Shown here in pieces: positions 6,189-56,817 of a DNA stretch of 64,000 nt. Where the stretch lies: NCBI RefSeq assembly GCF_044324785.1, contig NZ_CP172127.1; one strand, written 5' to 3'. The stretch is from Escherichia coli. Lineage in GTDB: Bacteria > Pseudomonadota > Gammaproteobacteria > Enterobacterales > Enterobacteriaceae. Numbering within the stretch: position 1 is the first letter of the stretch; the number at the start of each line of letters is the position of its first letter. Position numbers and translations under genes: made by a program. The notes beneath the pieces are model-generated. The model worked only from the letters and a program-made list of their open reading frames with translations. It did no database searches and had not been told where the DNA came from.

Positions 6189-7382
6189 TCAAATCTGCCG
6201 TAACTGCGCCTCAACATACAAATAGCCAATTCCCAGCACCTGTTGTGCGCGGCTTAATTGCCCAAAGCCAATCTGTGTCGCTTTCACGCTCGGTCCTTCG
6301 TCGCGGTCGAAAGGGTTAAATCCCGTCTGGCGAATGATGGTATTAAGCCAGTTCTCACCAAAGGCACAACTGCGACCGTACAACCAAATCTGATTAATAT
6401 TGAGGATGTTGAGGAAGTTATACAGACTCAAACCAATGGCGTTGGCAGAGCGATCAACCCAACTGGTGATCCACGGTTCTCCACTCTGCCAGGCAGCGAT
6501 TAACTGCGCAGTAGTCAGTTTTTCAGGATCAAGCTGAGTATTAACCGGTTGTGATTTTAGCCATACCCGCGCCTGTTTTTTTAATGCGCTTAACGAGGCG
6601 ACGGTTTCCAGGCAGCCATAACGTCCGCAGTCGCAGACGACGCCATCCGGATTAACGATGGTGTGACCAATCTGTCCGCTACCATACAAACTGCCGCGAT
6701 AAATTTGCTCGTTAATCACGAACGACGAGCCAATGCCGTAATCAACGTTGATCACGCAGAAATCCCGGCCCTGCGAATTATTTTGCCATTTCTCCGCCAG
6801 CGCCAGCATCACGCAGTCATTATCGACCATCACCCGAATGCCGAGCTTCTCTTCCAGCAGATACTTTACCTCAACCGGCGTTGTCCACGGTGCTTGCGGC
6901 ATGGTTTGCGACACGCCAGTCACCGGATCAACCTGACCGTGGATTGCCAGCGCCAGGTTGATGGTACGGTCCGGCCACAATTTACGGTGGCGATGCCAGC
7001 ATTTTTCGATTTCGGACAGCAGCGCCTGCGGCGTCGGTGCATCAATCTGTAAATACTCAAATTCACCTTTCGGACTTAAACAGGCGTTAGCGACCTGACA
7101 CTCAATACTGGTGGGCGTCACGTTCAGGCACAGCGTCCAGTCACCTTCCGGCGCAATCAGCCATGTACCGCTACTATGCCCGCGCGTCTGGCTTTCATCG
7201 TCGATATTCACCACCCGTTTTTCGCTTTCCAGTTCCTGCAAAATATTACTGACCGCCGGAATCGAAATTTGCGCCAGCCGGGCCAGGGTTGATTTATTGG
7301 CGCGCTTTTGCCGGTACAGCAGTTCCAGAATCACGCATTTGTTATGGTGGCGAATCTGTTGATTATTAATGCAGGCTCTCAT
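6189..7382 (-). CDS. yphH: ROK-family (NagC/Mlc-like) transcriptional regulator
   Basis: About 397-aa ORF with N-terminal HTH and a ROK sugar-kinase-like fold (CxCGxxGC zinc motif: CDCGRYGCLE); divergent from yphG. Confidence 0.8.
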   Translation of the reverse strand: MRACINNQQIRHHNKCVILELLYRQKRANKSTLARLAQISIPAVSNILQELESEKRVVNIDDESQTRGHSSGTWLIAPEGDWTLCLNVTPTSIECQVANACLSPKGEFEYLQIDAPTPQALLSEIEKCWHRHRKLWPDRTINLALAIHGQVDPVTGVSQTMPQAPWTTPVEVKYLLEEKLGIRVMVDNDCVMLALAEKWQNNSQGRDFCVINVDYGIGSSFVINEQIYRGSLYGSGQIGHTIVNPDGVVCDCGRYGCLETVASLSALKKQARVWLKSQPVNTQLDPEKLTTAQLIAAWQSGEPWITSWVDRSANAIGLSLYNFLNILNINQIWLYGRSCAFGENWLNTIIRQTGFNPFDRDEGPSVKATQIGFGQLSRAQQVLGIGYLYVEAQLRQI

Positions 7383-7499
7383 CTTCACTAAACCTTGTTT
7401 AGTTAATTGCGTGATTATTCCGCGAAAACATTGCCAGATTGTTCAATACACTGCCACAAATCTTTTAATTCAGTATGTCTTGTTAATATTGAGGGCACC

Positions 7500-10400
7500 A
7501 TGACTCCAGTAAAAGTGTGGCAAGAGCGCGTTGAGATCCCGACCTATGAAACCGGGCCGCAGGATATACATCCCATGTTCCTGGAAAATCGCGTTTATCA
7601 GGGATCGTCCGGCGCGGTTTATCCCTACGGCGTGACCGATACGCTGAGCGAGCAGAAAACCCTGAAATCCTGGCAGGCGGTGTGGCTGGAAAACGACTAC
7701 ATCAAAGTGATGATCCTGCCGGAACTGGGCGGTCGGGTGCATCGCGCGTGGGATAAAGTGAAACAGCGCGATTTTGTCTATCACAATGAAGTCATTAAAC
7801 CGGCGCTGGTGGGGCTGCTGGGACCGTGGATCTCCGGCGGGATTGAGTTTAACTGGCCGCAACACCATCGCCCGACCACCTTTATGCCCGTTGATTTCAC
7901 CCTCGAAGCCCATGAAGACGGCGCACAGACGGTGTGGGTAGGCGAAACGGAGCCGATGCATGGTTTACAGGTGATGACAGGTTTCACCCTGCGTCCTGAC
8001 CGGGCGGCGCTGGAAATCGCCAGCCGCGTCTATAACGGCAACGCCACGCCGCGTCATTTCTTGTGGTGGGCCAACCCGGCAGTGAAAGGGGGTGAAGGGC
8101 ATCAGAGCGTTTTCCCACCGGATGTGACTGCGGTGTTTGATCACGGCAAACGGGCCGTCTCTGCTTTCCCCATCGCCACCGGCACTTACTACAAAGTGGA
8201 CTACTCCGCTGGAGTGGACATTTCTCGCTATAAAAATGTGCCTGTTCCAACCTCATATATGGCTGAAAAATCACAGTACGATTTTGTTGGCGCGTGGTGT
8301 CACGATGAAGATGGCGGTTTGCTGCACGTTGCCAACCACCATATTGCGCCAGGTAAAAAACAGTGGAGTTGGGGACACAGTGAATTTGGCCAGGCGTGGG
8401 ATAAGAGTCTGACCGACAATAACGGCCCGTATATCGAACTGATGACTGGTATTTTTGCCGATAACCAGCCCGATTTTACCTGGCTTGATGCTTACGAAGA
8501 GAAGCGTTTCGAGCAGTATTTCCTGCCTTATCATTCTCTGGGCATGGTGCAAAATGCCTCCCGCGATGCGGTGATAAAACTCCAGCGTAGTGAGCGGGGG
8601 ATTGAGTGGGGGCTGTATGCCATCTCTCCGTTGAACGGATACCGCCTGGCGATCCGCGAAATCGGCAAATGCAACGCGTTACTTGATGATGCCGTGGCCT
8701 TGACACCAGCGACCGCCATCCAGGGCGTGTTGCACGGTATCAATCCTGAAAGGCTGACCATTGAGCTCTCCGATGCCGACGGCAATATTGTACTGAGTTA
8801 TCAGGAACATCAGCCGCAAGAGTTGCCGTTGCCGGACGTCGCCAAAGCGCCACTGGCAGCACAAGACATTACCAGTACAGATGAAGCCTGGTTTATCGGT
8901 CAGCATCTGGAGCAATATCATCACGCCAGCCGTTCACCGTTCGATTACTACCTGCGCGGCGTGGCGCTGGATCCGCTGGATTATCGCTGTAATCTGGCGC
9001 TGGCGATGCTGGAATATAACCGCGCAGATTTCCTGCAAGCGGTGGCGTATGCCACTCAGGCGCTGAAACGCGCACATGCGCTGAACAAAAATCCGCAGTG
9101 CGGACAGGCGAGTTTGATTCGCGCCAGTGCTTACGAACGTCAGGGGCAATATCAACAAGCCGAAGAGGATTTCTGGCGTGCGGTCTGGAGCGGCAACAGT
9201 AAAGCCGGTGGCTATTATGGTCTGGCACGGCTGGCGGCGCGTAATGGTCACGTCGACGCTGGTCTGGATTTTTGCCAACAAAGTCTTCGCGCCTGCCCAA
9301 CCAATCAGGAAGTGCTTTGCCTGCATAATCTGCTGCTGGTGTTAAGTGGTCGTCAGGACAACGCGCGTTTGCAGCGTGAGAAACTGCTGCGTGATTATCC
9401 GCTGAACGCCACTCTGTGGTGGCTGAACTGGTTCGATGGTCGTAGCGAATCAGCCCTCGCGCAGTGGCGCAGTCTGTGTCAGGGACGCGACGTTAACGCC
9501 CTGATGACCGCCGGGCAACTGATTAACTGGGGAATGCCCACCCTGGCGGCAGAGATGCTGAACGCACTGGACTGCCAGCGCACGCTGCCGCTTTACTTGC
9601 AAGCCAGCATGCTGCCGAAAGCTGAACGCGGCGAACTGGTCACAAAAGCCATTTATGTCTTCCCGCAGTTTGTCCGTTTCCCGAATACGCTGGAAGAAGT
9701 GGCGGCGCTGGAGAGTATTGAAGAGTGCTGGTTTGCCCGTCATTTACTGGCCTGCTTCTACTACAACAAGCGCAGCTACAACAAAGCCATTACTTTATGG
9801 CAACGTTGCGTAGAGATGTCGCCGGAGTTTGCCGACGGCTGGCGCGGGTTAGCGATCCATGCGTGGAATAAGCAACACGATTATGAGCTGGCCGCGCGTT
9901 ATCTTGATAATGCTTATCAGCTTGCTCCGCAGGATGCACGTCTGCTTTTCGAACGGGATTTGCTGGATAAGTTAAGCGGAGCCACACCGGAGAAACGACT
10001 GGCGCGTCTGGAAAATAATCTGGAAATTGCGCTGAAACGCGACGACATGACCGCAGAACTGCTCAATTTGTGGCATCTCACGGGTCAAGCAGACAAAGCG
10101 GCGGACATTCTCGCCACGCGCAAATTCCACCCGTGGGAAGGCGGGGAAGGGAAGGTCACCAGTCAGTTTATCCTCAACCAGTTATTACGCGCCTGGCAGC
10201 ATCTTGATGCCAGAGAGCCGCAGCAGGCCAGCGAACTGCTTCATGCCGCGCTGCATTATCCGGAGAATTTAAGCGAAGGCCGTTTACCGGGGCAAACTGA
10301 CAACGACATCTGGTTCTGGCAGGCGATATGCGCCAACGCGCAGGGTGATGAAACTGAAGCGACGCGTTGTTTACGTCTGGCGGCGACTGGCGATCGCACC

Positions 10401-10781
10401 ATTAACATTCACAGTTATTACAACGATCAGCCGGTTGATTATCTCTTCTGGCAAGGAATGGCGCTGCGACTGCTGGGCGAACAACAAATCGCACAGCAAC
10501 TGTTTAGTGAAATGAAACAGTGGGCGCAAGAGATGGCGAAAACCAGTATCGAGGCGGATTTCTTTGCTGTTTCACAACCTGACCTGTTGTCGCTGTATGG
10601 CGATTTACAACAGCAGCATAAAGAAAAATGCCTGATGGTGGCGATGCTGGCGTCCGCGGGACTAGGGGAGGTTGCGCAATATGAATCTGCTCGTGCTGAA
10701 TTGACGGCGATTAATCCGGCCTGGCCGAAAGCAGCATTATTCACCACCGTGATGCCTTTTATTTTTAACCGCGTTCACTAA
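7500..10781 (+). CDS. yphG: Large conserved protein of unknown function with C-terminal TPR-like repeats
   Basis: Long ORF (1124 aa from 7407); start placed at MTPVKVW (7500), which has a GAGGG Shine-Dalgarno, giving 1093 aa; first gene of the yphGFEDCB block. Confidence 0.75.
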   Translation: MTPVKVWQERVEIPTYETGPQDIHPMFLENRVYQGSSGAVYPYGVTDTLSEQKTLKSWQAVWLENDYIKVMILPELGGRVHRAWDKVKQRDFVYHNEVIKPALVGLLGPWISGGIEFNWPQHHRPTTFMPVDFTLEAHEDGAQTVWVGETEPMHGLQVMTGFTLRPDRAALEIASRVYNGNATPRHFLWWANPAVKGGEGHQSVFPPDVTAVFDHGKRAVSAFPIATGTYYKVDYSAGVDISRYKNVPVPTSYMAEKSQYDFVGAWCHDEDGGLLHVANHHIAPGKKQWSWGHSEFGQAWDKSLTDNNGPYIELMTGIFADNQPDFTWLDAYEEKRFEQYFLPYHSLGMVQNASRDAVIKLQRSERGIEWGLYAISPLNGYRLAIREIGKCNALLDDAVALTPATAIQGVLHGINPERLTIELSDADGNIVLSYQEHQPQELPLPDVAKAPLAAQDITSTDEAWFIGQHLEQYHHASRSPFDYYLRGVALDPLDYRCNLALAMLEYNRADFLQAVAYATQALKRAHALNKNPQCGQASLIRASAYERQGQYQQAEEDFWRAVWSGNSKAGGYYGLARLAARNGHVDAGLDFCQQSLRACPTNQEVLCLHNLLLVLSGRQDNARLQREKLLRDYPLNATLWWLNWFDGRSESALAQWRSLCQGRDVNALMTAGQLINWGMPTLAAEMLNALDCQRTLPLYLQASMLPKAERGELVTKAIYVFPQFVRFPNTLEEVAALESIEECWFARHLLACFYYNKRSYNKAITLWQRCVEMSPEFADGWRGLAIHAWNKQHDYELAARYLDNAYQLAPQDARLLFERDLLDKLSGATPEKRLARLENNLEIALKRDDMTAELLNLWHLTGQADKAADILATRKFHPWEGGEGKVTSQFILNQLLRAWQHLDAREPQQASELLHAALHYPENLSEGRLPGQTDNDIWFWQAICANAQGDETEATRCLRLAATGDRTINIHSYYNDQPVDYLFWQGMALRLLGEQQIAQQLFSEMKQWAQEMAKTSIEADFFAVSQPDLLSLYGDLQQQHKEKCLMVAMLASAGLGEVAQYESARAELTAINPAWPKAALFTTVMPFIFNRVH

Positions 10782-10877: not shown

Positions 10878-11861
10878 ATGCCTAAAAAAATGAGAACAAC
10901 CCGTAATCTATTATTAATGGCTACGCTATTAGGTAGCGCACTATTCGCCAGGGCTGCGGATAAAGAAATGACCATTGGCGCAATATACCTTGATACCCAG
11001 GGATATTACGCTGGCGTGCGTCAGGGCGTTCAGGATGCGGCAAAAGATTCTTCAGTACAGGTACAGTTAATTGAAACTAACGCCCAGGGTGATATTTCGA
11101 AAGAAAGTACCTTTGTTGATACCCTCGTGGCGCGTAATGTCGATGCCATTATTTTATCGGCAGTGTCTGAAAATGGCAGTAGCCGTACCGTTCGTCGCGC
11201 CAGTGAAGCGGGTATTCCGGTGATTTGCTACAACACCTGTATTAATCAAAAAGGCGTCGATAAATATGTCTCGGCGTATCTGGTCGGCGATCCGCTGGAA
11301 TTTGGTAAAAAACTGGGTAACGCTGCCGCCGATTATTTTATTGCCAACAAAATTGACCAGCCGAAAATTGCCGTTATCAATTGCGAAGCCTTTGAAGTTT
11401 GTGTGCAACGACGTAAAGGGTTTGAAGAAGTATTAAAAGCCCGCGTTCCCGGCGCGCAAATTGTCGCTAATCAGGAAGGGACTGTTTTAGATAAAGCGAT
11501 TTCCGTTGGTGAAAAACTAATTATCTCCACGCCGGATCTCAACGCCATTATGGGCGAATCGGGCGGTGCGACACTCGGCGCGGTAAAAGCGGTACGTAAT
11601 CAAAATCAGGCCGGAAAAATTGCTGTTTTCGGTTCTGATATGACCACTGAAATTGCTCAGGAGCTGGAAAACAACCAGGTGCTGAAAGCGGTGGTGGATA
11701 TTTCCGGTAAGAAAATGGGCAATGCTGTTTTCGCGCAAACTTTGAAGGTTATCAATAAACAAGCCGACGGTGAAAAAGTGATTCAGGTGCCTATCGATCT
11801 CTATACCAAAACGGAAGACGGTAAACAGTGGCTGGCAACGCACGTTGATGGTCTGCCCTAA
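10878..11861 (+). CDS. yphF: Periplasmic sugar-binding protein of an ABC transporter
   Basis: 327-aa ORF with signal peptide (MRTTRNLLLMATLLGSALFARA) and periplasmic-binding-protein fold features. Confidence 0.85.
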   Translation: MPKKMRTTRNLLLMATLLGSALFARAADKEMTIGAIYLDTQGYYAGVRQGVQDAAKDSSVQVQLIETNAQGDISKESTFVDTLVARNVDAIILSAVSENGSSRTVRRASEAGIPVICYNTCINQKGVDKYVSAYLVGDPLEFGKKLGNAAADYFIANKIDQPKIAVINCEAFEVCVQRRKGFEEVLKARVPGAQIVANQEGTVLDKAISVGEKLIISTPDLNAIMGESGGATLGAVKAVRNQNQAGKIAVFGSDMTTEIAQELENNQVLKAVVDISGKKMGNAVFAQTLKVINKQADGEKVIQVPIDLYTKTEDGKQWLATHVDGLP

Positions 11862-11883
11862 TCGCTGATTCGCAGAGGTCCCT

Positions 11884-13395
11884 ATGTTCACGGCAACAGA
11901 GGCAGTCCCGGTAGCAAAAGTGGTGGCAGGAAATAAGCGTTATCCCGGCGTCGTTGCGTTGGATAACGTTAACTTCACGCTCAATAAAGGCGAAGTTCGT
12001 GCGCTGTTAGGCAAAAACGGCGCGGGCAAATCGACCCTCATTCGAATGCTTACCGGTAGCGAACGTCCGGATAGCGGTGATATCTGGATTGGCGAGACGT
12101 GACTGGAAGGTGACGAAGCTACGCTGACTCGCCGTGCCGCTGAACTGGGGGTACGCGCGGTTTATCAGGAGTTAAGTCTGGTGGAAGGGCTGACGGTGGC
12201 GGAAAACCTCTGCCTCGGTCAATGGCCCCGCCGCAACGGCATGATTGATTACCCGCAAATGGCGCAGGATGCCCAACGTTGCTTACTGGCGCTGGGCGTT
12301 GACGTTAGTCCTGAACAACTTGTTTCAACACTAAGCCCGGCGCAAAAGCAGCTGGTGGAAATTGCGCGGGTGATGAAAGGCGAGCCGCGCGTGGTCATTC
12401 TTGATGAACCTACCAGTTCGCTTGCCAGTGCGGAAGTTGAACTGGTGATCAGCGCGGTTAAAAAGATGTCGGCACTGGGCGTGGCGGTGATTTATGTCAG
12501 CCACCGGATGGAAGAAATTCGCCGCATTGCCTCCTGTGCCACCGTTATGCGCGATGGTCAGGTGGCGGGCGATGTGATGCTCGAAAACACCTCCACGCAT
12601 CATATTGTGTCGCTAATGCTCGGGCGCGATCACGTTGATATTGCGCCGGTTTCCCCTCAGGAAATTGTCGATCAGGCCGTGCTGGAAGTCCGTGCGTTAC
12701 GCCATAAGCCCAAGCTGGAGGATATCAGCTTTACGCTCCGTCGTGGCGAAGTACTCGGCATTGCTGGCCTGCTGGGGGCAGGGCGCAGTGAATTGTTGAA
12801 AGCCATAGTTGGGCTGGATACGTATGAACAGGGCGAAATTGTTATCAACGGCGAGAAAATCACGCGCCCCGATTACGGCGACATGCTGAAACGCGGCATT
12901 GGCTATACGCCAGAAAACCGCAAAGAAGCGGGGATCATTCCCTGGCTGGGCGTTGACGAAAATACGGTGCTGACCAATCGGCAAAAAATCAGCGCCAACG
13001 GTGTGCTGCAATGGTCCACCATCCGCCGCCTGACCGAAGAGGTGATGCAGCGGATGACGGTCAAGGCCGCCAGTAGCGAAACGCCCATCGGCACGCTTTC
13101 TGGCGGCAATCAGCAAAAAGTGGTGATCGGTCGTTGGGTCTATGCCGCCAGCCAGATTTTGTTGCTCGACGAGCCAACGCGTGGCGTCGATATCGAAGCC
13201 AAACAGCAGATTTACCGTATTGTCCGCGAGCTGGCTGCCGAAGGAAAAAGCGTGGTGTTTATCTCCAGTGAAGTGGAGGAGTTGCCGCTGGTGTGTGACC
13301 GCATCCTGTTATTACAGCACGGCACGTTCTCGCAGGAGTTTCACGCTCCGGTCAATGTGGATGAGCTGATGTCCGCCATTCTGTCTGTGCACTGA
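11884..13395 (+). pseudogene. yphE: Sugar ABC transporter ATP-binding protein with duplicated ABC domains, interrupted by an in-frame TGA at 12100-12102 (codon 73)
   Basis: ORFs 11884..12102 and 12181..13395 are in the same frame; the 26 codons between them have no stop and read as ABC ATPase sequence; Walker [10 protein letters not shown] lies upstream of the stop; uninterrupted length would be 503 aa. Confidence 0.7.
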
Positions 13396-13419: not shown

Positions 13420-14418
13420 ATGTCTGCTTCGTCATTACCATTGCCGCAGGGCAAGAGCGTCTCGCTCAAACAATTTGTCAGTCGCCATATTAATGAGATC
13501 GGTTTGCTGGTGGTGATTGCCATTCTTTATCTGGTCTTCTCCCTGAACGCGCCTGGCTTTATCTCATTGAATAACCAGATGAACGTGCTGCGCGATGCCG
13601 CCACCATCGGGATCGCCGCCTGGGCGATGACGCTGATTATTATCTCTGGTGAAATTGATGTCAGCGTTGGGCCGATGGTGGCTTTTGTCTCGGTGTGCCT
13701 GGCATTTTTGCTGCAATTTGAAGTTCCGCTGGCGGTGGCGTGTCTGCTGGTGTTGCTGTTAGGCGCGCTGATGGGAACGCTGGCCGGGGTGCTGCGCGGC
13801 GTGTTTAACGTACCAAGTTTCGTGGCCACGCTGGGGCTGTGGAGCGCCCTGCGCGGAATGGGGCTGTTTATGACCAACGCACTGCCAGTGCCGATTGACG
13901 AAAATGAGGTGTTGGACTGGTTGGGGGGACAATTTCTCGGTGTGCCGGTATCTGCGCTGATCATGATGGTGCTGTTTGCGCTGTTTGTGTTCATTAGCCG
14001 CAAAACCGCCTTCGGGCGCTCGGTTTTTGCCGTTGGCGGTAATGCCACGGCGGCGCAGTTATGCGGTATTAACGTTCGTCGGGTACGCATTCTTATTTTT
14101 ACCCTTTCGGGATTATTAGCAGCGGTGACCGGCATTTTGTTGGCGGCGCGCCTCGGTTCTGGTAACGCAGGTGCGGCAAACGGTCTGGAGTTTGACGTCA
14201 TCGCCGCGGTCGTGGTCGGCGGTACGGCACTTTCCGGCGGTCGCGGTTCCCTGTTCGGTACATTGCTTGGTGTGCTGGTGATTACGCTAATCGGTAACGG
14301 TCTGGTGCTGCTCGGTATTAACTCCTTTTTCCAGCAGGTGGTACGCGGCGTCATCATCGTGGTGGCGGTGCTGGCGAATATCTTGCTGACCCAGCGAAGC
14401 AGTAAAGCGAAACGCTAA
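13420..14418 (+). CDS. yphD: ABC transporter permease (ribose/monosaccharide type)
   Basis: 332-aa highly hydrophobic multi-pass protein directly downstream of the ATPase gene. Confidence 0.85.
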   Translation: MSASSLPLPQGKSVSLKQFVSRHINEIGLLVVIAILYLVFSLNAPGFISLNNQMNVLRDAATIGIAAWAMTLIIISGEIDVSVGPMVAFVSVCLAFLLQFEVPLAVACLLVLLLGALMGTLAGVLRGVFNVPSFVATLGLWSALRGMGLFMTNALPVPIDENEVLDWLGGQFLGVPVSALIMMVLFALFVFISRKTAFGRSVFAVGGNATAAQLCGINVRRVRILIFTLSGLLAAVTGILLAARLGSGNAGAANGLEFDVIAAVVVGGTALSGGRGSLFGTLLGVLVITLIGNGLVLLGINSFFQQVVRGVIIVVAVLANILLTQRSSKAKR

Positions 14419-14483
14419 ACCTTAACGCCCCTGGCGCGGGTGCGGCAGGGATGAAAATTAATCGTATTGTTAATGAGGGATTT

Positions 14484-15545
14484 ATGAAAACGATGCTGGC
14501 AGCTTATTTACCAGGAAATTCGACCGTCGATCTGCGGGAAGTTGCGGTGCCGACGCCGGGGATTAACCAGGTACTGATCAAAATGAAATCCTCCGGAATT
14601 TGCGGAAGCGATGTCCACTATATCTACCACCAGCACCGCGCTACGGCGGCGGCACCCGATAAACCGTTATACCAGGGATTTATCAACGGTCATGAACCGT
14701 GCGGGCAAATTGTGGCGATGGGGCAAGGCTGCCGCCATTTTAAAGAGGGCGACCGTGTGCTGGTGTATCATATTTCTGGCTGTGGTTTTTGCCCGAACTG
14801 CCGTCGTGGTTTTCCTATCTCTTGTACTGGCGAAGGAAAAGCGGCTTACGGCTGGCAGCGTGACGGCGGCCATGCTGAATACCTGCTGGCGGAAGAAAAA
14901 GATCTGATCCTGCTCCCGGACGCGCTGAGCTATGAAGATGGTGCGTTTATCAGTTGCGGCGTTGGTACAGCGTATGAAGGGATTTTGCGCGGCGAAGTTT
15001 CCGGCAGTGATAACGTGCTGGTGGTCGGTCTGGGGCCGGTCGGCATGATGGCGATGATGCTGGCGAAAGGTCGCGGTGCAAAACGGATCATCGGCGTTGA
15101 TATGCTGCCGGAACGTCTGGCGATGGCAAAACAGTTAGGGGTGATGGATCACGGCTATTTAGCGACCACCGAAGGTCTGCCGCAGATAATTGCTGAACTT
15201 ACCCACGGTGGCGCGGATGTTGCGCTCGATTGTTCTGGTAATGCCGCAGGTCGCTTGCTGGCACTGCGATCCACCGCTGACTGGGGACGGGTGGTTTACA
15301 TCGGAGAAACCGGAAAAGTGGAGTTCGAGGTCAGCGCCGATCTGATGCACCATCAACGGCGGATTATCGGCTCCTGGGTGACCAGTCTGTTCCATATGGA
15401 AAAATGCGCCCATGATCTGACGGACTGGAAACTGTGGCCGCGTAACGCCATTACCCATCGCTTCACGCTGGAACAGGCAGGTGATGCCTATGCGCTGATG
15501 GCGAGCGGCAAATGCGGGAAAGTTGTGATTAACTTCCCGGATTAA
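14484..15545 (+). CDS. yphC: Zinc-dependent alcohol/polyol dehydrogenase (MDR family)
   Basis: GHE zinc-ligand motif (GHEPCG), structural-zinc Cys cluster (CGFCPNCRRG), Rossmann motif (VVGLGPVG); start chosen at MKTMLAAYL (353 aa). Confidence 0.85.
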   Translation: MKTMLAAYLPGNSTVDLREVAVPTPGINQVLIKMKSSGICGSDVHYIYHQHRATAAAPDKPLYQGFINGHEPCGQIVAMGQGCRHFKEGDRVLVYHISGCGFCPNCRRGFPISCTGEGKAAYGWQRDGGHAEYLLAEEKDLILLPDALSYEDGAFISCGVGTAYEGILRGEVSGSDNVLVVGLGPVGMMAMMLAKGRGAKRIIGVDMLPERLAMAKQLGVMDHGYLATTEGLPQIIAELTHGGADVALDCSGNAAGRLLALRSTADWGRVVYIGETGKVEFEVSADLMHHQRRIIGSWVTSLFHMEKCAHDLTDWKLWPRNAITHRFTLEQAGDAYALMASGKCGKVVINFPD

Positions 15546-15556
15546 GGAGTTAGCGG

Positions 15557-16429
15557 ATGACCATCTATACCTTGTCCCACGGGTCGCTAAAGCTGGGCGT
15601 TTCTGACCAGGGCGGCGTAATCGAAGGCTTCTGGCGCGATACGACGCCGCTCTTACGTCCTGGTAAAAAAAGCGGTGTGGCAACCGATGCCTCTTGTTTT
15701 CCGCTGGTGCCATTTGCAAACCGGGTGAGCGGCAACCGTTTTGTCTGGCAGGGGCGTGAGTATCAACTGCAACCGAATGTTGAGTGGGATGCGCACTATC
15801 TGCACGGCGACGGCTGGCTGGGGCAGTGGCAATGTGTCTCGCGCAGCGAAGATAGCTTGTGTCTGGTGTATGAACATCGCAGCGGTGTTTATCACTATCG
15901 GGTAAGTCAGGCGTTTCATTTAACGGCGGATACGCTGACGGTGACGCTCTCTGTCACCAATCAAGGGGCAGAGACGCTGCCATTTGGTACCGGCTGGCAT
16001 CCTTATTTTCCGTTGTCACCACAAACGCGGATTCAGGCGCAGGCGAGCGGTTACTGGCTGGAGCGGGAGCAGTGGCTGGCGGGTGAGTTTTGCGAGCAGC
16101 TACCGCAGGAGCTGGATTTCAACCAGCTCGCGCCGTTGCCGCACCAGTGGGTAAACAATGGCTTTGCCGGATGGAATGGTCAGGCCCGCATCGAGCAGCC
16201 GCAGGAGGGTTATGCCATCATCATGGAAACGACGCCACCTGCACCATGTTATTTCATCTTTGTTTCCGACCCGGCGTTTGATAAAGGATATGCGTTTGAT
16301 TTCTTCTGTCTGGAACCGATGAGCCATGCGCCGGATGACCATCATCGCCCGGAAGGGGGTGATCTCATTGCGCTTGCACCAGGGGAATCAACAACTTCAG
16401 AGATGTCGTTGCGGGTTGCGTTACTGTAA
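15557..16429 (+). CDS. yphB: Aldose 1-epimerase family protein
   Basis: 290-aa ORF in the sugar-utilisation cluster; assigned from gene order and length rather than a specific motif. Confidence 0.8.
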   Translation: MTIYTLSHGSLKLGVSDQGGVIEGFWRDTTPLLRPGKKSGVATDASCFPLVPFANRVSGNRFVWQGREYQLQPNVEWDAHYLHGDGWLGQWQCVSRSEDSLCLVYEHRSGVYHYRVSQAFHLTADTLTVTLSVTNQGAETLPFGTGWHPYFPLSPQTRIQAQASGYWLEREQWLAGEFCEQLPQELDFNQLAPLPHQWVNNGFAGWNGQARIEQPQEGYAIIMETTPPAPCYFIFVSDPAFDKGYAFDFFCLEPMSHAPDDHHRPEGGDLIALAPGESTTSEMSLRVALL

Positions 16430-28419: not shown

Positions 28420-28530
28420 TAAAAAGTATTCAGAATCAGGCCGGAGTGTTTAACACTCCGTAAACACGGTCGTACATCCAGCCGGTAGCCTGGTTCCTTG
28501 CATTGAGTGATGTACGGAGTTTATAGAGCA

Positions 28531-33703: not shown

Positions 33704-34987
33704 ATGACAGAAGCGATGAAAATTACCCTCTCTACCCAACCTGCCGACGCGCGCTGGGGAGAAAAAGCGACTTACAGCATTAATAATGATGGCATTACCC
33801 TGCATTTGAACGGGGTGGACGATCTGGGGCTGATCCAGCGTGCGGCGCGCAAGATTGACGGTCTGGGCATCAAGCATGTTCAGTTAAGCGGTGAAGGCTG
33901 GGATGCGGATCGTTGCTGGGCATTCTGGCAAGGTTACAAAGCCCCGAAAGGCACGCGTAAAATGGAGTGGCCGGATCTGGACGATGCCCAGCGCCAGGAA
34001 CTGGATAACCGCCTGATGATCATCGACTGGGTGCGTGACACCATCAACGCACCGGCGGAAGAACTGGGGCCATCGCAACTGGCACAGCGTGCTGTTGATC
34101 TGATCAGCAACGTCGCAGGCGATCGTGTGACTTATCGGATCACCAAAGGTGAAGATCTGCGTGAGCAAGGTTATATGGGGCTGCACACTGTCGGACGCGG
34201 TTCAGAACGTTCCCCGGTATTGCTGGCGCTGGATTACAACCCAACTGGCGATAAAGAAGCGCCAGTGTACGCGTGCCTGGTTGGTAAAGGCATCACCTTT
34301 GATTCCGGCGGCTACAGCATCAAACAGACCGCATTTATGGACTCGATGAAGTCGGACATGGGCGGCGCGGCAACGGTTACCGGGGCGCTGGCGTTTGCCA
34401 TTACGCGCGGACTGAACAAGCGCGTGAAGCTGTTCCTCTGCTGTGCGGATAACCTGATCAGCGGCAACGCGTTCAAACTGGGCGATATTATTACCTATCG
34501 CAACGGTAAAAAAGTTGAAGTGATGAACACTGATGCCGAAGGGCGTCTGGTGCTGGCTGATGGCCTGATTGATGCCAGTGCGCAGAAACCGGAACTGATC
34601 ATTGATGCGGCGACCCTCACCGGGGCGGCGAAAACCGCGCTGGGTAATGATTATCACGCGCTGTTCAGTTTTGACGATGCGCTTGCCGGTCGCTTGCTGG
34701 CGAGTGCCTCACAAGAGAATGAACCGTTCTGGCGTCTGCCGCTGGCGGAGTTCCACCGCAGCCAGCTGCCGTCTAACTTTGCGGAACTGAACAATACCGG
34801 AAGCGCGGCGTACCCGGCAGGCGCGAGCACGGCGGCGGGCTTCCTGTCGCACTTTGTTGAGAACTATCAGCAAGGCTGGCTGCATATCGACTGCTCGGCG
34901 ACTTACCGTAAAGCGCCGGTTGAACAGTGGTCTGCGGGTGCTACGGGACTTGGTGTGCGCACGATTGCTAATCTGTTAACGGCGTAA
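33704..34987 (+). CDS. pepB: Peptidase B (M17 leucyl aminopeptidase family)
   Basis: 427 aa from [11 protein letters not shown]17 signature [11 protein letters not shown]-track upstream extension rejected. Confidence 0.9.
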
Positions 34988-35105: not shown

Positions 35106-35882
35106 ATGTCCGAAACAAAAAACGAACTTGAAGATCTGCTGGAAAAAGCAGCAACCGAACCGGCGCACCGCCCGGCCTTTTTCCGTACGCTACTGGGATC
35201 CACCGTCTGGGTGCCTGGTACGGCGGCGCAGGGCGAGGCTGTGGTTGAAGATAGCGCACTTGATTTACAGCACTGGGAAAAAGAAGACGGCACCAGTGTC
35301 ATTCCTTTTTTCACCTCGTTAGAAGCACTTCAACAGGTGGTTGAAGACGAACAGGCATTTGTCGTAATGCCCGTTCGCACATTGTTTGAGATGACCCTTG
35401 GCGAAACGCTCTTCCTTAATGCCAAACTGCCAACCGGTAAAGAATTTATGCCGCGTGAAATCAGTTTGCTGATTGGTGAAGAAGGAAATCTGCTGAGCAG
35501 CCAGGAAGTACTGGAAGGCGGTGAATCGCTGATATTATCGGAAGTTGCAGAGCCACCAGCACAAATGATTGATTCACTCACCACCTTATTTAAAACCATT
35601 AAGCCAGTGAAGCGTGCTTTTCTTTGTTCAATTAAAGAGAACGAAGAGGCACAGCCTAATTTACTTATTGGCATTGAAGCCGATGGTGATATCGAAGAAA
35701 TTATTCAGGCGGCGGGAAGTGTAGCGACCGATACATTACCTGGCGATGAACCCATCGATATTTGTCAGGTGAAAAAAGGGGAAAAAGGAATTAGCCACTT
35801 TATTACCGAACATATTGTGCCATTCTATGAACGTCGCTGGGGTGGTTTTTTGCGTGACTTTAAACAGAACCGGATAATCTAA
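35106..35882 (+). CDS. sseB: SseB (enhancer of serine sensitivity) family protein
   Basis: 258 aa from MSETKNELEDLL; position between pepB and sseA. Confidence 0.85.
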   Translation: MSETKNELEDLLEKAATEPAHRPAFFRTLLGSTVWVPGTAAQGEAVVEDSALDLQHWEKEDGTSVIPFFTSLEALQQVVEDEQAFVVMPVRTLFEMTLGETLFLNAKLPTGKEFMPREISLLIGEEGNLLSSQEVLEGGESLILSEVAEPPAQMIDSLTTLFKTIKPVKRAFLCSIKENEEAQPNLLIGIEADGDIEEIIQAAGSVATDTLPGDEPIDICQVKKGEKGISHFITEHIVPFYERRWGGFLRDFKQNRII

Positions 35883-35885
35883 AAT

Positions 35886-35912
35886 ATGCCGCCCCAAAGG
35901 GCGGCATTCGGG
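35886..35912. terminator. Bidirectional intrinsic terminator: ends sseB on the + strand and the putative ryfA transcript on the - strand
   Basis: Hairpin gccgccc caaa gggcggc; on the - strand it is followed by atatttt. Confidence 0.55.
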
Positions 35913-36199
35913 CTTACCTGCTGTTCTGAAGGTTGTTAACCACCAATAAATTGTTGCCGGAGAGACTCCGGTTATTATTTACCTCGGTTAACAGCGCACC
36001 AGAAACAATAAGTACGATACAAAAGCACCGTATCTTCATTGTGCGGTCCATGCGAAGACCGCATCACGACAGCACCACTGGCGATATTGCCGCGATAGCA
36101 AGCGCTGAGACGCGCTTGCCCTAACGGTCGCGGAACATCCTTTCCTTAAGCCAGCGCCCGCTTGCGAGACGGCGGAAAGGTCCGCAGTGGATAACACAC
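35893..36199 (-). ncRNA. ryfA: Putative ryfA transcript (about 300 nt), a small mRNA/sRNA carrying a short hydrophobic ORF
   Basis: From memory, ryfA lies next to the sseB 3' end in K-12. Candidate - strand promoter (-35 TTGTCA, 16-bp spacer, -10 TATTGT) near 36207-36234 and the terminator at 35886-35912 bound a roughly 300-nt unit. Confidence 0.45.
35914..36051 (-). CDS. Small hydrophobic ORF (45 codons; 41 from the internal Met at 36039): MDRTMKIRCFCIVLIVSGALLTEVNNNRSLSGNNLLVVNNLQNSR; candidate type I toxin-like membrane peptide (TimP-like)
   Basis: Hand-translated from the - strand; hydrophobic stretch CFCIVLIVSGALL; lies inside the putative ryfA transcript; not in the ORF track because it is under 60 aa. 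Confidence 0.35.
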   Translation of the reverse strand: MDRTMKIRCFCIVLIVSGALLTEVNNNRSLSGNNLLVVNNLQNSR

Positions 36200-36262: not shown

Positions 36263-36359
36263 CGCTGAGACGCGCTTGCATTACTACGGTTATACAATCT
36301 GCTGGAAAGGCCGCGAACCAAACCAGCAACAAATAACCGCCTGATTTTGGCGGTTTTTT
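36263..36359 (+). ncRNA. Candidate sRNA (about 97 nt) divergent from ryfA, with a 17-nt perfect antisense match to the ryfA 5' region; antitoxin-like (TimR-like)
   Basis: Promoter TTGACA (36228-36233), 17-bp spacer, GAGTAT; internal hairpin tgctgg...ccagca; intrinsic terminator aaccgcc tgatttt ggcggtt plus T6 at 36335-36359; 36263-36279 is identical to 36103-36119 on the same strand. Confidence 0.4.
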
Positions 36360-36539
36360 GTTGTTTAAAGAAAGTGAAATTACACGTTTAAGTAATATCT
36401 TTTACCAGTTAGTATATTTTAATATTAAGCGGGATTTGTTTATATTTGTCTGAATTCGGACTGATAAGCCAAATGAATTCAAAATCTATCCTTTTTTATC
36501 TACTTGACATCGTTGATGCATAAAGCGAGTATTGAGTAG

Positions 36540-48177: not shown

Positions 48178-49296
48178 ATGCATAACCAGGCTCCAATTCA
48201 ACGTAGAAAATCAACACGTATTTACGTTGGGAATGTGCCGATTGGCGATGGTGCTCCCATCGCCGTACAGTCCATGACCAATACGCGTACGACAGACGTC
48301 GAAGCAACGGTCAATCAAATCAAGGCGCTGGAACGCGTTGGCGCTGATATCGTCCGTGTCTCCGTACCGACGATGGACGCGGCAGAAGCGTTCAAACTCA
48401 TCAAACAGCAGGTTAACGTGCCGCTGGTGGCTGACATCCACTTCGACTATCGCATTGCGCTGAAAGTAGCGGAATACGGCGTCGATTGTCTGCGTATTAA
48501 CCCTGGCAATATCGGTAATGAAGAGCGTATTCGCATGGTGGTTGACTGTGCGCGCGATAAAAACATTCCGATCCGTATTGGCGTTAACGCCGGATCGCTG
48601 GAAAAAGATCTGCAAGAAAAGTATGGCGAACCGACGCCGCAGGCGTTGCTGGAATCCGCCATGCGTCATGTTGATCATCTCGATCGCCTGAACTTCGATC
48701 AGTTCAAAGTCAGCGTGAAAGCGTCAGACGTCTTCCTCGCTGTTGAGTCTTATCGTTTGCTGGCAAAACAGATCGATCAGCCGCTGCATCTGGGGATCAC
48801 CGAAGCGGGTGGTGCGCGCAGCGGGGCGGTTAAATCCGCCATTGGTTTAGGTCTGCTGCTGTCTGAAGGCATCGGCGACACGCTGCGCGTATCGCTGGCG
48901 GCCGATCCGGTTGAAGAGATCAAAGTCGGTTTCGATATTTTGAAATCGCTGCGTATCCGTTCGCGAGGGATCAACTTCATCGCCTGCCCGACCTGTTCGC
49001 GTCAGGAATTTGATGTTATCGGTACGGTTAACGCGCTGGAGCAACGCCTGGAAGATATCATCACTCCGATGGACGTTTCGATTATCGGCTGCGTGGTGAA
49101 TGGCCCAGGTGAGGCGCTGGTTTCTACACTCGGCGTCACCGGCGGCAACAAGAAAAGCGGCCTCTATGAAGATGGCGTGCGCAAAGACCGTCTGGACAAC
49201 AACGATATGATCGACCAGCTGGAAGCACGCATTCGTGCGAAAGCCAGTCAGCTGGACGAAGCGCGTCGAATTGACGTTCAGCAGGTTGAAAAATAA
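48178..49296 (+). CDS. ispG: 4-hydroxy-3-methylbut-2-enyl diphosphate synthase (MEP pathway)
   Basis: 372 aa, Cys ligands ([15 protein letters not shown]). Confidence 0.95.
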
Positions 49297-49386
49297 TAAC
49301 GTGATGGGAAGCGCCTCGCTTCCCGTGTATGATTGAACCCGCATGGCTCCCGAAACATTGAGGGAAGCGTTGAGGGTTCATTTTTA
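49297..49386 (+). ncRNA. sroE: Probable SroE-like 3'UTR-derived sRNA between ispG and hisS
   Basis: Two stem-loops (gggaagcg cctc cgcttccc; tgaaccc...gggttca) followed by T5 at 49381-49385; from memory, SroE sits in this spacer in K-12. Confidence 0.45.
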
Positions 49387-49406
49387 TATTCAGAAAGAGA
49401 ATAAAC

Positions 49407-52625: not shown

Positions 52626-54098
52626 ATGGTACCTGTGGTCGCGCTTGTCGGGCGCCCTAACGTAGGAAAATCCACGTTATTTAACCGTCTAACTCGCACC
52701 CGAGATGCGCTGGTTGCGGATTTCCCGGGTCTGACTCGTGACCGTAAGTACGGTCGTGCAGAAATTGAAGGCCGTGAGTTTATCTGCATTGATACCGGCG
52801 GGATTGATGGTACAGAAGACGGTGTAGAAACCCGTATGGCGGAACAGTCGCTGCTGGCGATTGAAGAAGCGGACGTCGTACTGTTTATGGTGGATGCGCG
52901 CGCGGGCCTGATGCCGGCGGATGAAGCGATTGCCAAACATCTGCGCTCCCGTGAAAAACCGACCTTCCTGGTGGCAAACAAAACTGACGGTCTGGATCCC
53001 GATCAGGCAGTGGTTGATTTCTACTCGCTTGGTTTAGGGGAAATCTACCCGATCGCCGCGTCTCACGGTCGTGGCGTATTAAGTCTGCTGGAGCATGTGC
53101 TGCTGCCGTGGATGGAAGATCTCGCACCGCAAGAGGAAGTCGACGAAGACGCTGAATACTGGGCGCAATTTGAAGCAGAAGAAAACGGCGAAGAAGAAGA
53201 GGAAGATGACTTCGACCCGCAAAGTCTGCCAATCAAACTGGCGATTGTGGGTCGTCCGAACGTAGGTAAGTCTACACTCACGAACCGTATTCTTGGTGAA
53301 GAGCGCGTTGTTGTTTACGACATGCCTGGCACGACGCGTGACAGCATCTACATTCCAATGGAACGCGACGGACGTGAGTATGTACTCATTGACACCGCTG
53401 GCGTACGTAAACGCGGCAAAATCACCGATGCTGTAGAGAAGTTCTCGGTAATCAAAACGTTGCAGGCCATTGAAGATGCCAACGTGGTGATGTTGGTGAT
53501 TGATGCGCGCGAAGGTATTTCCGATCAGGATCTCTCCCTGCTGGGCTTTATTCTCAATAGTGGGCGCTCACTTGTCATTGTGGTGAATAAGTGGGATGGC
53601 CTGAGCCAGGAAGTGAAAGAGCAGGTGAAAGAAACGCTGGACTTCCGTCTGGGCTTTATCGATTTTGCTCGTGTGCACTTTATCTCTGCCTTGCACGGCA
53701 GTGGTGTTGGTAATCTGTTTGAATCAGTACGTGAAGCGTATGACAGCTCCACCCGTCGTGTGGGGACCTCTATGCTGACGCGCATCATGACGATGGCTGT
53801 TGAAGATCACCAGCCGCCGCTGGTACGTGGTCGTCGTGTGAAGCTGAAATATGCCCACGCTGGTGGTTATAACCCGCCGATTGTGGTGATTCACGGTAAC
53901 CAGGTGAAAGACCTGCCGGATTCCTACAAGCGTTACTTGATGAACTACTTCCGCAAATCGCTGGACGTAATGGGATCGCCGATTCGTATTCAGTTCAAAG
54001 AAGGGGAAAACCCGTATGCGAACAAGCGTAACACCCTGACGCCAACCCAGATGCGTAAACGTAAGCGCCTGATGAAGCATATCAAGAAAAGTAAGTAA
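52626..54098 (+). CDS. der: Ribosome-associated GTPase Der (EngA), tandem GTPase domains plus KH-like domain
   Basis: 490 aa from [16 protein letters not shown]; second P-loop GRPNVGKST; acidic linker between the GTPase domains. Confidence 0.9.
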
Positions 54099-54160
54099 TC
54101 ACTTATCTGGTTTCCCTTTCCACACGGAGAGGGAAACCGAATAACACGCGAGGAGTATTT

Positions 54161-54376
54161 ATGGCACTCAACTGTCCAACCTGCAAAATCCCTCTCGAAC
54201 GCAATGGCGAGACTGCCCACTGTGCAACTTGCGACAAAGACTTTACCGTCCAGGCACTTTGCCCTGAGTGTCATCAGCCGTTACAAGTGTTAAAAGCTTG
54301 TGGTGCTGTGGATTATTTCTGCCAACATGGGCACGGTTTAATATCTAAAAAACGCGTTGAATTTGTTATTGCTTAA
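54161..54376 (+). CDS. yfgJ: Small zinc-ribbon protein YfgJ
   Basis: 71 aa with four CxxC pairs (CPTC, CATC, CPEC, CQHG region). Confidence 0.8.
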   Translation: MALNCPTCKIPLERNGETAHCATCDKDFTVQALCPECHQPLQVLKACGAVDYFCQHGHGLISKKRVEFVIA

Positions 54377-54585
54377 TATCATGTGAATATATTGTTTTAT
54401 CATTTATATTTAATATGTGAATGGTAAAACAATCTGTTATTAGTGGAATAACTAATGTAATTGAGTGAAATCACTAATTTAAATAATTAAGAATATATTT
54501 ATTCTTTATGACATGCCTTTCTGAATAATCAGGGATACAATATTAAAGCTTATTTTTGACTGTATCATTGTCACAGGGAAAGTGC

Positions 54586-56763: not shown

Positions 56764-56817
56764 GATTGGCGTAAGGCCAGTCGGCCAGTCGCTGAAGGTT
56801 CATTAAGGAGAGCATCA

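What the first reader, a model, noticed from the sequence alone, without database searches (positions are those of the whole stretch)
12100..12102. In-frame TGA stop at codon 73 of the ABC transporter ATPase gene yphE
ORFs 11884-12102 and 12181-13395 are in the same frame, and the 26 codons between them have no stop and continue the ABC ATPase sequence (...IWIGET*LEGDEATLTRRAAELGVRAVYQELSL...). The stop comes after the first Walker A motif, so at most a 72-aa fragment would be made unless translation restarts at GTG 12181. This looks like a single-base nonsense change, probably CGA to TGA, or a sequencing error. It would inactivate an otherwise intact transporter in the yph cluster.
Basis: seen in the sequence. 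Interest (0 to 1): 0.45.

Follow-up and report, generated by a model that had tools for sequence, protein, structure and literature searches.

The report
Real nonsense mutation inactivating yphE
A single C-to-T change has turned codon 73 (arginine) of the E. coli sugar-transporter ATPase gene yphE into a stop codon; the change is real and inherited in one E. coli lineage, but it is an ordinary, already-annotated kind of gene loss.

Summary
TGA at 12100-12102 interrupts yphE (11884-13395, +) at codon 73, and the frame is otherwise open. The codon is CGA (Arg) in K-12, ST2747, N3 and 5235 of 5426 complete E. coli genomes; only two carry the TGA, and PGAP marks both "pseudo, internal stop". It is not a sequencing error. 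An independent NCBI assembly is 100% identical to the window over 20 kb, stop included, and this lineage's 404-aa downstream product is indexed in 122 blocks of the assembly collection. The intact parent allele still circulates: two assemblies carry a yphE that differs from the window's only by C at this position. The same stop also sits on at least two other unrelated haplotypes. That is not a special hotspot, because control stops (R54*, W68*, Q95*) are found at similar frequencies. The stop falls after Walker A of the first ATPase domain and before its Q-loop, signature and Walker B. A restart at GTG 12181 would give a protein lacking Walker A and the Q-loop. All 46 other K-12 orthologues lying wholly in the window are intact. 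Verdict: a recent, lineage-specific nonsense pseudogene; low interest.

The parts
11884..13395 (+). yphE pseudogene: the whole former coding region for the ATP-binding subunit, with two ABC domains, of the putative YphDEF sugar ABC transporter
   Evidence: Gap-free 1512-nt alignment to K-12 yphE at 97.6% identity, in conserved synteny. Pfam ABC_tran at residues 26-178 and 278-432 of the reconstructed protein. Best NCBIfam matches are AraG/XylG/AlsA/MglA/RbsA-type ATPases, all below their equivalog cut-offs.
12100..12102 (+). Premature TGA at codon 73. The change is C to T at 12100; the ancestral codon is CGA (Arg).
   Evidence: The CGA 30-mer is in 5235 complete genomes and the TGA 30-mer in 2. 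Sister alleles L041 and L042 differ only at this base.
11884..12102 (+). N-terminal remnant ORF of 72 residues, containing only the start of NBD1 including Walker A
   Evidence: The exact 72-aa product is called on 160 contigs and indexed in 243 blocks of public assemblies.
12010..12036 (+). Walker A (P-loop) of NBD1, GKNGAGKST, residues 43-51, upstream of the stop
   Evidence: Read directly from the translation. Lies within Pfam ABC_tran 26-178.
12103..12180 (+). 26 in-frame codons (residues 74-99) that fall in neither ORF. They include the probable Q-loop glutamine, Q95.
   Evidence: The Q-loop assignment is by position and motif (VYQE) and is inferred.
12168..12172 (+). AGGAG, a Shine-Dalgarno-like sequence 8 nt upstream of GTG 12181. 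It is part of the normal coding sequence (CAG GAG = Q95 E96).
   Evidence: Sequence. Its function as a ribosome-binding site is inferred only.
12181..13395 (+). C-terminal ORF of 404 residues from GTG. It lacks residues 1-99, that is Walker A and the Q-loop of NBD1.
   Evidence: Gene callers call this ORF in every carrier. This lineage's exact product is on 89 contigs and in 122 blocks.
10878..11861 (+). yphF, periplasmic substrate-binding protein, intact
13420..14418 (+). yphD, ABC permease, intact. It lies downstream of the stop, so it may suffer polarity (inferred).
14451..16429 (+). yphC (Zn-dependent dehydrogenase family, 14451-15545) and yphB (aldose 1-epimerase, 15557-16429), both intact
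6189..10781 (.). yphH (ROK-family regulator, 6189-7382, minus strand) and yphG (DUF5107/TPR protein, 7500-10781, plus strand), both intact

Best explanation
yphE in this genome is a recent pseudogene, fixed in one lineage, created by a single spontaneous C-to-T transition that turned codon 73 from CGA (Arg) into TGA. Shown: the change is real, derived, and inherited within one E. coli clone. Inferred: ribosomes terminate after residue 72, releasing a fragment that holds only the first strands and the P-loop of nucleotide-binding domain 1. Any protein started at the internal GTG 12181 would lack Walker A and the Q-loop of NBD1. NBD1 carries the only canonical Walker A lysine; NBD2 has GLLGAGRSE, with Arg in place of Lys. 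Either way the YphDEF importer would have no working ATPase. The untranslated gap may also reduce expression of yphD, yphC and yphB through polarity. The loss is most likely neutral or nearly so. It is one of many sporadic loss-of-function alleles of a conserved but dispensable accessory transporter whose substrate is unknown.
For: Stop and frame. Ancestral CGA in K-12, ST2747, SK1144 and N3, and the CGA 30-mer in 5235 of 5426 complete genomes against 2 for TGA. PGAP annotates those two as 'pseudo, internal stop'. Not an error: L006 (GCA_958308385.1) is 100% identical to window 1884-22102, with 21 further similar places. The lineage-specific 404-aa product is on 89 contigs and in 122 blocks, and all 24 contigs read show the same 72 + 404 aa arrangement. 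Recent and arisen on this haplotype: L041 and L042 have yphE identical at 1511 of 1512 nt, with C at position 217. L041 differs from the window at only 5 sites between 5446 and 19810. The gene was under purifying selection until recently: dN/dS is 0.06-0.13 against five other alleles. Domain logic: ABC_tran at 26-178 and 278-432. No other decay: 46 other K-12 orthologues lying wholly in the window are full length with no indels. Other routes to loss exist at similar frequency: R54* 102 blocks, W68* 117 + 52 blocks, Q95* 94 blocks, each confirmed at DNA level in at least one locus read.
Against: No expression or transport data exist, so loss of function is inferred. TGA followed by C is, from my own knowledge of E. 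coli termination (Poole, Brown and Tate 1995), the weakest stop context, so a small fraction of full-length protein with Trp at position 73 may still be made. R73* is about 2-3.5 times more frequent in the index than each control nonsense allele (243 + 116 blocks against 52-117), and it occurs on at least 3 haplotypes. A mild mutational or selective bias is therefore not excluded.
Confidence: 0.86

Rival explanations
1. Sequencing or assembly error: the genome really has CGA at codon 73.
For: A single-base difference is the simplest kind of error. No complete RefSeq genome shares this exact 121-bp haplotype with the T.
Against: The identical allele in an identical 20-kb context is in an independent NCBI assembly, with 21 further similar places. 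The lineage-specific 404-aa product is on 89 contigs and in 122 blocks. The change is a substitution, not an indel in a homopolymer run. By contrast, the 96-aa frameshift product at the G5 run occurs mostly in assemblies where every neighbouring gene is fragmented.
Confidence: 0.02
2. Leaky stop: UGA-C is read through by tRNA-Trp often enough for the lineage to keep a low but useful level of full-length YphE (R73W). On this reading the gene is attenuated rather than dead.
For: The stop is TGA followed by C, the weakest termination context in E. coli according to my own knowledge of the literature; this was not tested here. The rest of the gene and the operon are intact in this lineage.
Against: The intactness is explained just as well by the mutation being recent: there are no other differences from the intact sister allele. 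Typical readthrough is a few percent or less. One E66-type carrier lineage (L018) has since acquired a 39-bp deletion in the 3' part, so constraint is not maintained there. No stimulatory RNA structure lies downstream (z = -0.10).
Confidence: 0.07
3. Split gene: translation restarts at GTG 12181, preceded by AGGAG at 8 nt, and the 404-aa product alone or together with the 72-aa fragment still powers the transporter.
For: A strong SD-like AGGAG lies at 12168-12172, 8 nt before GTG 12181. Gene callers consistently predict this ORF.
Against: Residues 74-99, including the probable Q-loop Q95, would be in neither fragment. The 404-aa product lacks the only canonical Walker A. The AGGAG is ordinary coding sequence and is also present in intact alleles (K-12 reference sequence). 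Nothing indicates a selected arrangement: the TGA is in only 2 of 5237 scorable complete genomes.
Confidence: 0.03
4. Convergent, positively selected loss, or a mutational hotspot: R73* recurs because losing YphDEF import is advantageous in some niche, or because this C is unusually mutable.
For: The same TGA sits on at least 3 haplotypes. With the window they share only 29-57 bp of identical sequence around the site. R73* totals 359 index blocks, against 52-117 for each control.
Against: Every control transition-to-stop tested in the same 100 codons is also present: R54*, W68* by two different changes, and Q95*. R54* and W68* each sit on more than one background. Block counts are inflated by clonal sampling: 22 of the 24 contigs read for P0001 are the window's own clone. 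The site is not a Dcm (CCWGG) site. Frequency in complete genomes is 0.04%.
Confidence: 0.08

Closest known systems
[quoted passage not shown]
   Same: Same locus, same gene neighbourhood (yphH-yphG-yphF-yphE-yphD-yphC-yphB), same length, 97.6% nucleotide identity with no gaps, and the same two ABC_tran domains.
   Different: Codon 73 is TGA instead of CGA, so the reading frame is broken. There are five further amino-acid differences (L124P, Q135L, A257S, E312D, E313T). The three that separate the window from K-12 but not from ST2747 (L124P, Q135L, A257S) are present in that intact allele.
yphE pseudogenes of E. coli AR_0061 (NZ_CP020058.1) and MDK9L1 (NZ_CP081333.1), annotated by PGAP as 'internal stop'
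   Same: Exactly the same nonsense change, CGA to TGA at codon 73.
   Different: A different haplotype, with 40 differences in yphE including D66E. The identical tract around the site is only 29 bp, so the origin is independent.
Intact sister alleles in GCA_021459405.1 (L041) and GCA_033739655.1 (L042)
   Same: Identical to the window's yphE at 1511 of 1512 nt. L041 also has a near-identical flank, with 5 differences over 14.4 kb.
   Different: C at gene position 217, giving an uninterrupted 503-aa protein.
Two-domain monosaccharide-importer ATPases (RbsA, MglA, AraG, XylG, AlsA)
   Same: Full-length similarity (E 1e-114 to 4e-136) and the same fused two-NBD architecture.
   Different: All scores are below the curated equivalog cut-offs (454 against 689 bits for AraG, for example), so the substrate cannot be assigned. 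No paper in the searched library mentioned two or more of the other yph genes, and the yphE mentions I saw say nothing about function.

Membership tests
yphE orthologue (two-NBD sugar ABC transporter ATPase) | Orthologous position and sequence: between yphF and yphD, full-length alignment to K-12 yphE | tested here: met
   1512-nt gap-free alignment at 97.6% identity; flanking genes in the same order
yphE orthologue (two-NBD sugar ABC transporter ATPase) | Two ABC_tran nucleotide-binding domains | tested here: met
   Pfam PF00005 at residues 26-178 (E 9e-31) and 278-432 (E 3e-24) of the reconstructed protein
yphE orthologue (two-NBD sugar ABC transporter ATPase) | Uninterrupted reading frame encoding the full 503-aa protein | tested here: not met
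   TGA at codon 73
yphE orthologue (two-NBD sugar ABC transporter ATPase) | Assignment to an ATPase of known substrate (equivalog-level score) | tested here: not met
   Best NCBIfam hits (AraG, XylG, AlsA, MglA, YtfR, RbsA, LsrA) are all below their curated cut-offs
Nonsense pseudogene | In-frame stop where intact orthologues have a sense codon | tested here: met
   CGA in K-12, ST2747, SK1144 and N3; CGA 30-mer in 5235 complete genomes
Nonsense pseudogene | Derived state on its own haplotype, with the intact parent allele identifiable | tested here: met
   L041 and L042 differ from the window's yphE only by C at position 217
Nonsense pseudogene | Real allele, reproduced in independent assemblies | tested here: met
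   L006 is 100% identical over 20 kb; 89 contigs and 122 blocks carry the lineage-specific 404-aa product
Nonsense pseudogene | Loss of protein function | not testable with these tools
   Inferred from the stop lying between Walker A and the Q-loop, signature and Walker B of NBD1
Programmed UGA recoding (selenocysteine or programmed readthrough) | Stable stem-loop (SECIS-like) immediately 3' of the UGA | tested here: not met
   The 66 nt from the UGA fold no better than shuffled sequences: -19.9 kcal/mol, z = -0.10
Programmed UGA recoding (selenocysteine or programmed readthrough) | UGA conserved among orthologues | tested here: not met
   TGA in 2 complete genomes against CGA in 5235

The most novel reading that the evidence does not exclude
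R73* of yphE is a convergently selected or hypermutable loss-of-function site. It arose at least three times on unrelated E. coli haplotypes and is somewhat commoner than neighbouring nonsense alleles. That could mean that shutting off the uncharacterised YphDEF importer, perhaps only partly because UGA-C is leaky, is advantageous in some niche.
Probability: 0.08. Interest if true: 0.3.

Novelty: already known. Interest (0 to 1): 0.1.

Why it matters
It matters little beyond annotation. In this lineage yphE should be annotated as a pseudogene, not as two separate genes of 72 and 404 aa, which is how many public records list it. The lineage is predicted to lack YphDEF-dependent uptake of a still unknown sugar. 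There is one practical use. The window's clone and its near-identical sisters with CGA (GCA_021459405.1 and GCA_033739655.1) form a natural, nearly isogenic pair. They could be used to look for the unknown substrate of the yph cluster. The analysis also shows that public E. coli sequencing is now deep enough that each of the four single-step nonsense changes I looked up in the first 100 codons of this gene has been sampled. Recurrence of one nonsense allele should therefore not be read as evidence of selection.

Tried and rejected
1. Sequencing error: rejected, because the allele is in many independent assemblies.

2. General genome decay, as in Shigella: rejected, because 46 other orthologues are intact with no indels.

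3. Selenocysteine or programmed recoding: rejected, because there is no structure downstream and the TGA is not conserved.

4. Dcm deamination hotspot: the site (ACG CGA CTGG) is not CCWGG.

5. Unique hotspot: weakened, because the controls R54*, W68* and Q95* are present at 52-117 blocks.

6. L007 as a separate origin: not counted, because it shares a 369-bp identical tract (11742-12110) with the window and may be a recombinant.

7. The 96-aa frameshift product P0002 as a comparable natural allele: largely rejected. It lies at a G5 run and occurs mostly in assemblies where all neighbouring genes are fragmented, which points to long-read indel errors.

8. Scan of GTDB species-representative genomes for the 41-mer around the stop: 0 hits. 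This is uninformative because there is only one genome per species.

9. Literature: no paper in the library mentions two or more of the other yph genes. The yphE mentions are incidental or unrelated. The readthrough paper I found (PMC9841425) concerns eukaryotic contexts, so the statement about UGA-C in E. coli rests on my own knowledge.

10. Identifying the source strain: only partly achieved. Some NCBI records name the product's source 'Escherichia coli O22', and the longest carrier contig is 5.68 Mb. The nearest complete RefSeq genome, N3, is a mosaic match.

Full report
**Observation.**

The window reads GAG ACG TGA CTG GAA at 12094-12108. ORF 11884-12102 (72 codons) and ORF 12181-13395 (404 codons, GTG start) are in the same frame. 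Translating 11884-13395 gives a 503-residue protein with one internal stop, at codon 73. The 26 codons between the two ORFs are open and continue the protein. The finding is therefore correct as written.

**What the gene is.**

The stretch aligns without gaps over all 1512 nt to yphE of E. coli K-12 at 97.6% identity. [quoted passage not shown] It sits in the usual neighbourhood of yphH, yphG, yphF, yphE, yphD, yphC and yphB.

The reconstructed protein has two Pfam ABC_tran domains, at residues 26-178 and 278-432. It resembles the two-domain monosaccharide-importer ATPases AraG, XylG, AlsA, MglA and RbsA. All of these score below their curated equivalog cut-offs, so no substrate can be assigned. 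The library holds no paper mentioning two or more of the other yph genes, and only incidental mentions of yphE.

**What the change is.**

The codon is CGA (Arg) in K-12, ST2747, SK1144 and N3. The difference is a single C-to-T change at gene position 217, window 12100.

I used 30-mers centred on the site. With megablast's 28-base word, only exact carriers can hit.
- The CGA version is in 5235 complete genomes.
- The TGA version is in 2, AR_0061 and MDK9L1.
- PGAP annotates yphE in both of those as a pseudogene with an 'internal stop'.

**Real or error.**

The exact 72-aa truncated product is indexed in 243 blocks of the public assembly collection and is called on 160 contigs. One carrier, GCA_958308385.1 (L006), is 100% identical to window 1884-22102. 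A further 21 of the 24 contigs read have the same context.

The 404-aa downstream product, with this lineage's exact sequence, is on 89 contigs and in 122 blocks. All 24 contigs read show the 72 + 404 aa arrangement. Some NCBI records name the source 'Escherichia coli O22'. A one-off sequencing error is excluded; the allele is fixed in a clone that has been sampled many times.

**Ancestry.**

The intact 503-aa version of exactly this protein, with R at position 73, is indexed in 40 blocks. At the DNA level, yphE of L041 (GCA_021459405.1) and L042 (GCA_033739655.1) is identical to the window's at 1511 of 1512 positions, with C at 217. L041 differs from the window at only 5 sites between 5446 and 19810.

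So the mutation arose on this haplotype, and recently. Nothing else in the gene has changed since. Historic constraint on the gene was strong: dN/dS is 0.06-0.13 against five other alleles.

**Recurrence.**

The same TGA occurs on other haplotypes.
- **E66 type** (P0003; L009, L010, L013-L020; 116 blocks): identical to the window only over 12082-12110, 29 bp.
- **L008:** identical to the window only over 12067-12123, 57 bp.
- **L007:** shares a 369-bp identical tract with the window, so I do not count it as a separate origin.

That gives at least three independent origins. One E66-type carrier (L018) has since gained a 39-bp deletion further along the gene, which is what one expects of a pseudogene.

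**Is it a hotspot?**

I looked up hypothetical truncated products for other single-transition stops in the same region. All of them exist:

| Allele | Change | Blocks |
|---|---|---|
| R54* | CGA to TGA (the only other CGA codon in the gene) | 102 |
| W68* | TGG to TAG, D66 background | 117 |
| W68* | TGG to TGA, E66 background | 52 |
| Q95* | CAG to TAG | 94 |

R54* and W68* sit on more than one background. For each allele at least one locus was confirmed at the DNA level; for Q95*, two of the three loci read showed no stop in the stretch examined.

R73* totals 359 blocks. That is 2-3.5 times more than each control but the same order of magnitude, and the count is inflated by clonal sampling. 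The site is not a Dcm site. I conclude that recurrence reflects sampling depth rather than anything special about this site. A modest bias is not excluded.

**Consequence (inferred).**

The stop lies after Walker A of NBD1 (GKNGAGKST, residues 43-51). It lies before the probable Q-loop (Q95), the signature (LSPAQ) and Walker B (VVILDEPT).

A restart at GTG 12181 is plausible on sequence grounds. AGGAG lies 8 nt upstream, but it is ordinary coding sequence that intact alleles also carry. The resulting protein would lack residues 1-99. Residues 74-99 would be in neither product.

NBD2 has Arg in place of the Walker A lysine (GLLGAGRSE). In this transporter class that usually marks the degenerate ATP site; this point rests on my own knowledge. 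The transporter is therefore most likely dead.

The stop context UGA-C is, from my own knowledge, the leakiest in E. coli, so a trace of full-length R73W protein is possible. The RNA downstream has no unusual structure (z = -0.10), and the TGA is not conserved, so programmed recoding is excluded. Polarity on yphD, yphC and yphB is possible but untested.

**Surroundings.**

All 46 other K-12 orthologues lying wholly within the window, from qseG to yfgJ, are full length with no indels or internal stops. qseE is cut by the window start. There is no general decay and no other lesion in the yph cluster.

**Verdict.**

This is an ordinary, recent, lineage-specific nonsense pseudogene of an accessory transporter gene. 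The same allele is already annotated as a pseudogene in RefSeq. Interest is low.

The only mildly useful by-product is the natural, nearly isogenic CGA/TGA strain pair, which could help find the unknown substrate of the yph cluster.

Noticed in passing
window 54556-64000: Beyond yfgJ (54161-54376) the window leaves K-12 synteny; K-12 has xseA and guaBA next. It carries sinH (an intimin-like inverse autotransporter, about 54586-56763), a SinI-family gene (56818-57795) and the start of a very large 'adhesion domain' gene that runs off the window end. This 9.7-kb stretch is essentially identical to E. coli N3 (2 mismatches over 54001-64000) and has some match in 1700 of 5426 complete genomes.
   Followed up: partly
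window 1-64000: Against the nearest complete RefSeq genome (N3) the window is a recombination mosaic. There are 0-1 mismatches per 2 kb at 54-64 kb and 3-79 per 2 kb elsewhere. No complete RefSeq genome exceeds 98.5% identity over 5000-29000.
   Followed up: partly
window 54161-54376: yfgJ, next to the sinH island, is unusually divergent from K-12. Only its 3' 123 nt align, at 81% identity, whereas the other genes are at 96-100%.
   Followed up: no
window 12146-12150; loci L021, L022, L024, L026: A G5 run in yphE is the site of a 1-bp deletion that produces a 96-aa product indexed in 173 blocks. Most of the long contigs carrying it have all neighbouring genes fragmented, which points to long-read homopolymer errors rather than real alleles.
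   Followed up: partly
L018 (GCA_902847155.1), yphE 3' part: One E66-type R73* carrier has an additional 39-bp in-frame deletion, giving a downstream ORF of 391 aa instead of 404. This is secondary decay of the pseudogene.
   Followed up: partly
window 35881-36185 (-), 36317-36495 (-), 28420-28529 (+), 49296-49387 (+): Rfam matches above the gathering score: ryfA sRNA (overlapping the timP toxin gene at 35914-36039), IS128 sRNA, the iscRS stability element and sroE. All are at their expected K-12 positions.
   Followed up: no
complete-genome hits H40 (14EC017) and H84 (D10): 27 of the 5413 complete genomes with a yphE match cover less than 80% of the gene; 14EC017 covers only 13%. D10's gene is annotated only as 'ATP-binding cassette domain-containing protein'. 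These suggest other, unrelated yphE disruptions.
   Followed up: no
L012 843-2125 (E. coli N3): In N3, pepB is annotated as frameshifted and the iscX-pepB spacer is about 120 bp shorter than in the window. The window's pepB (33704-34987) is intact.
   Followed up: no
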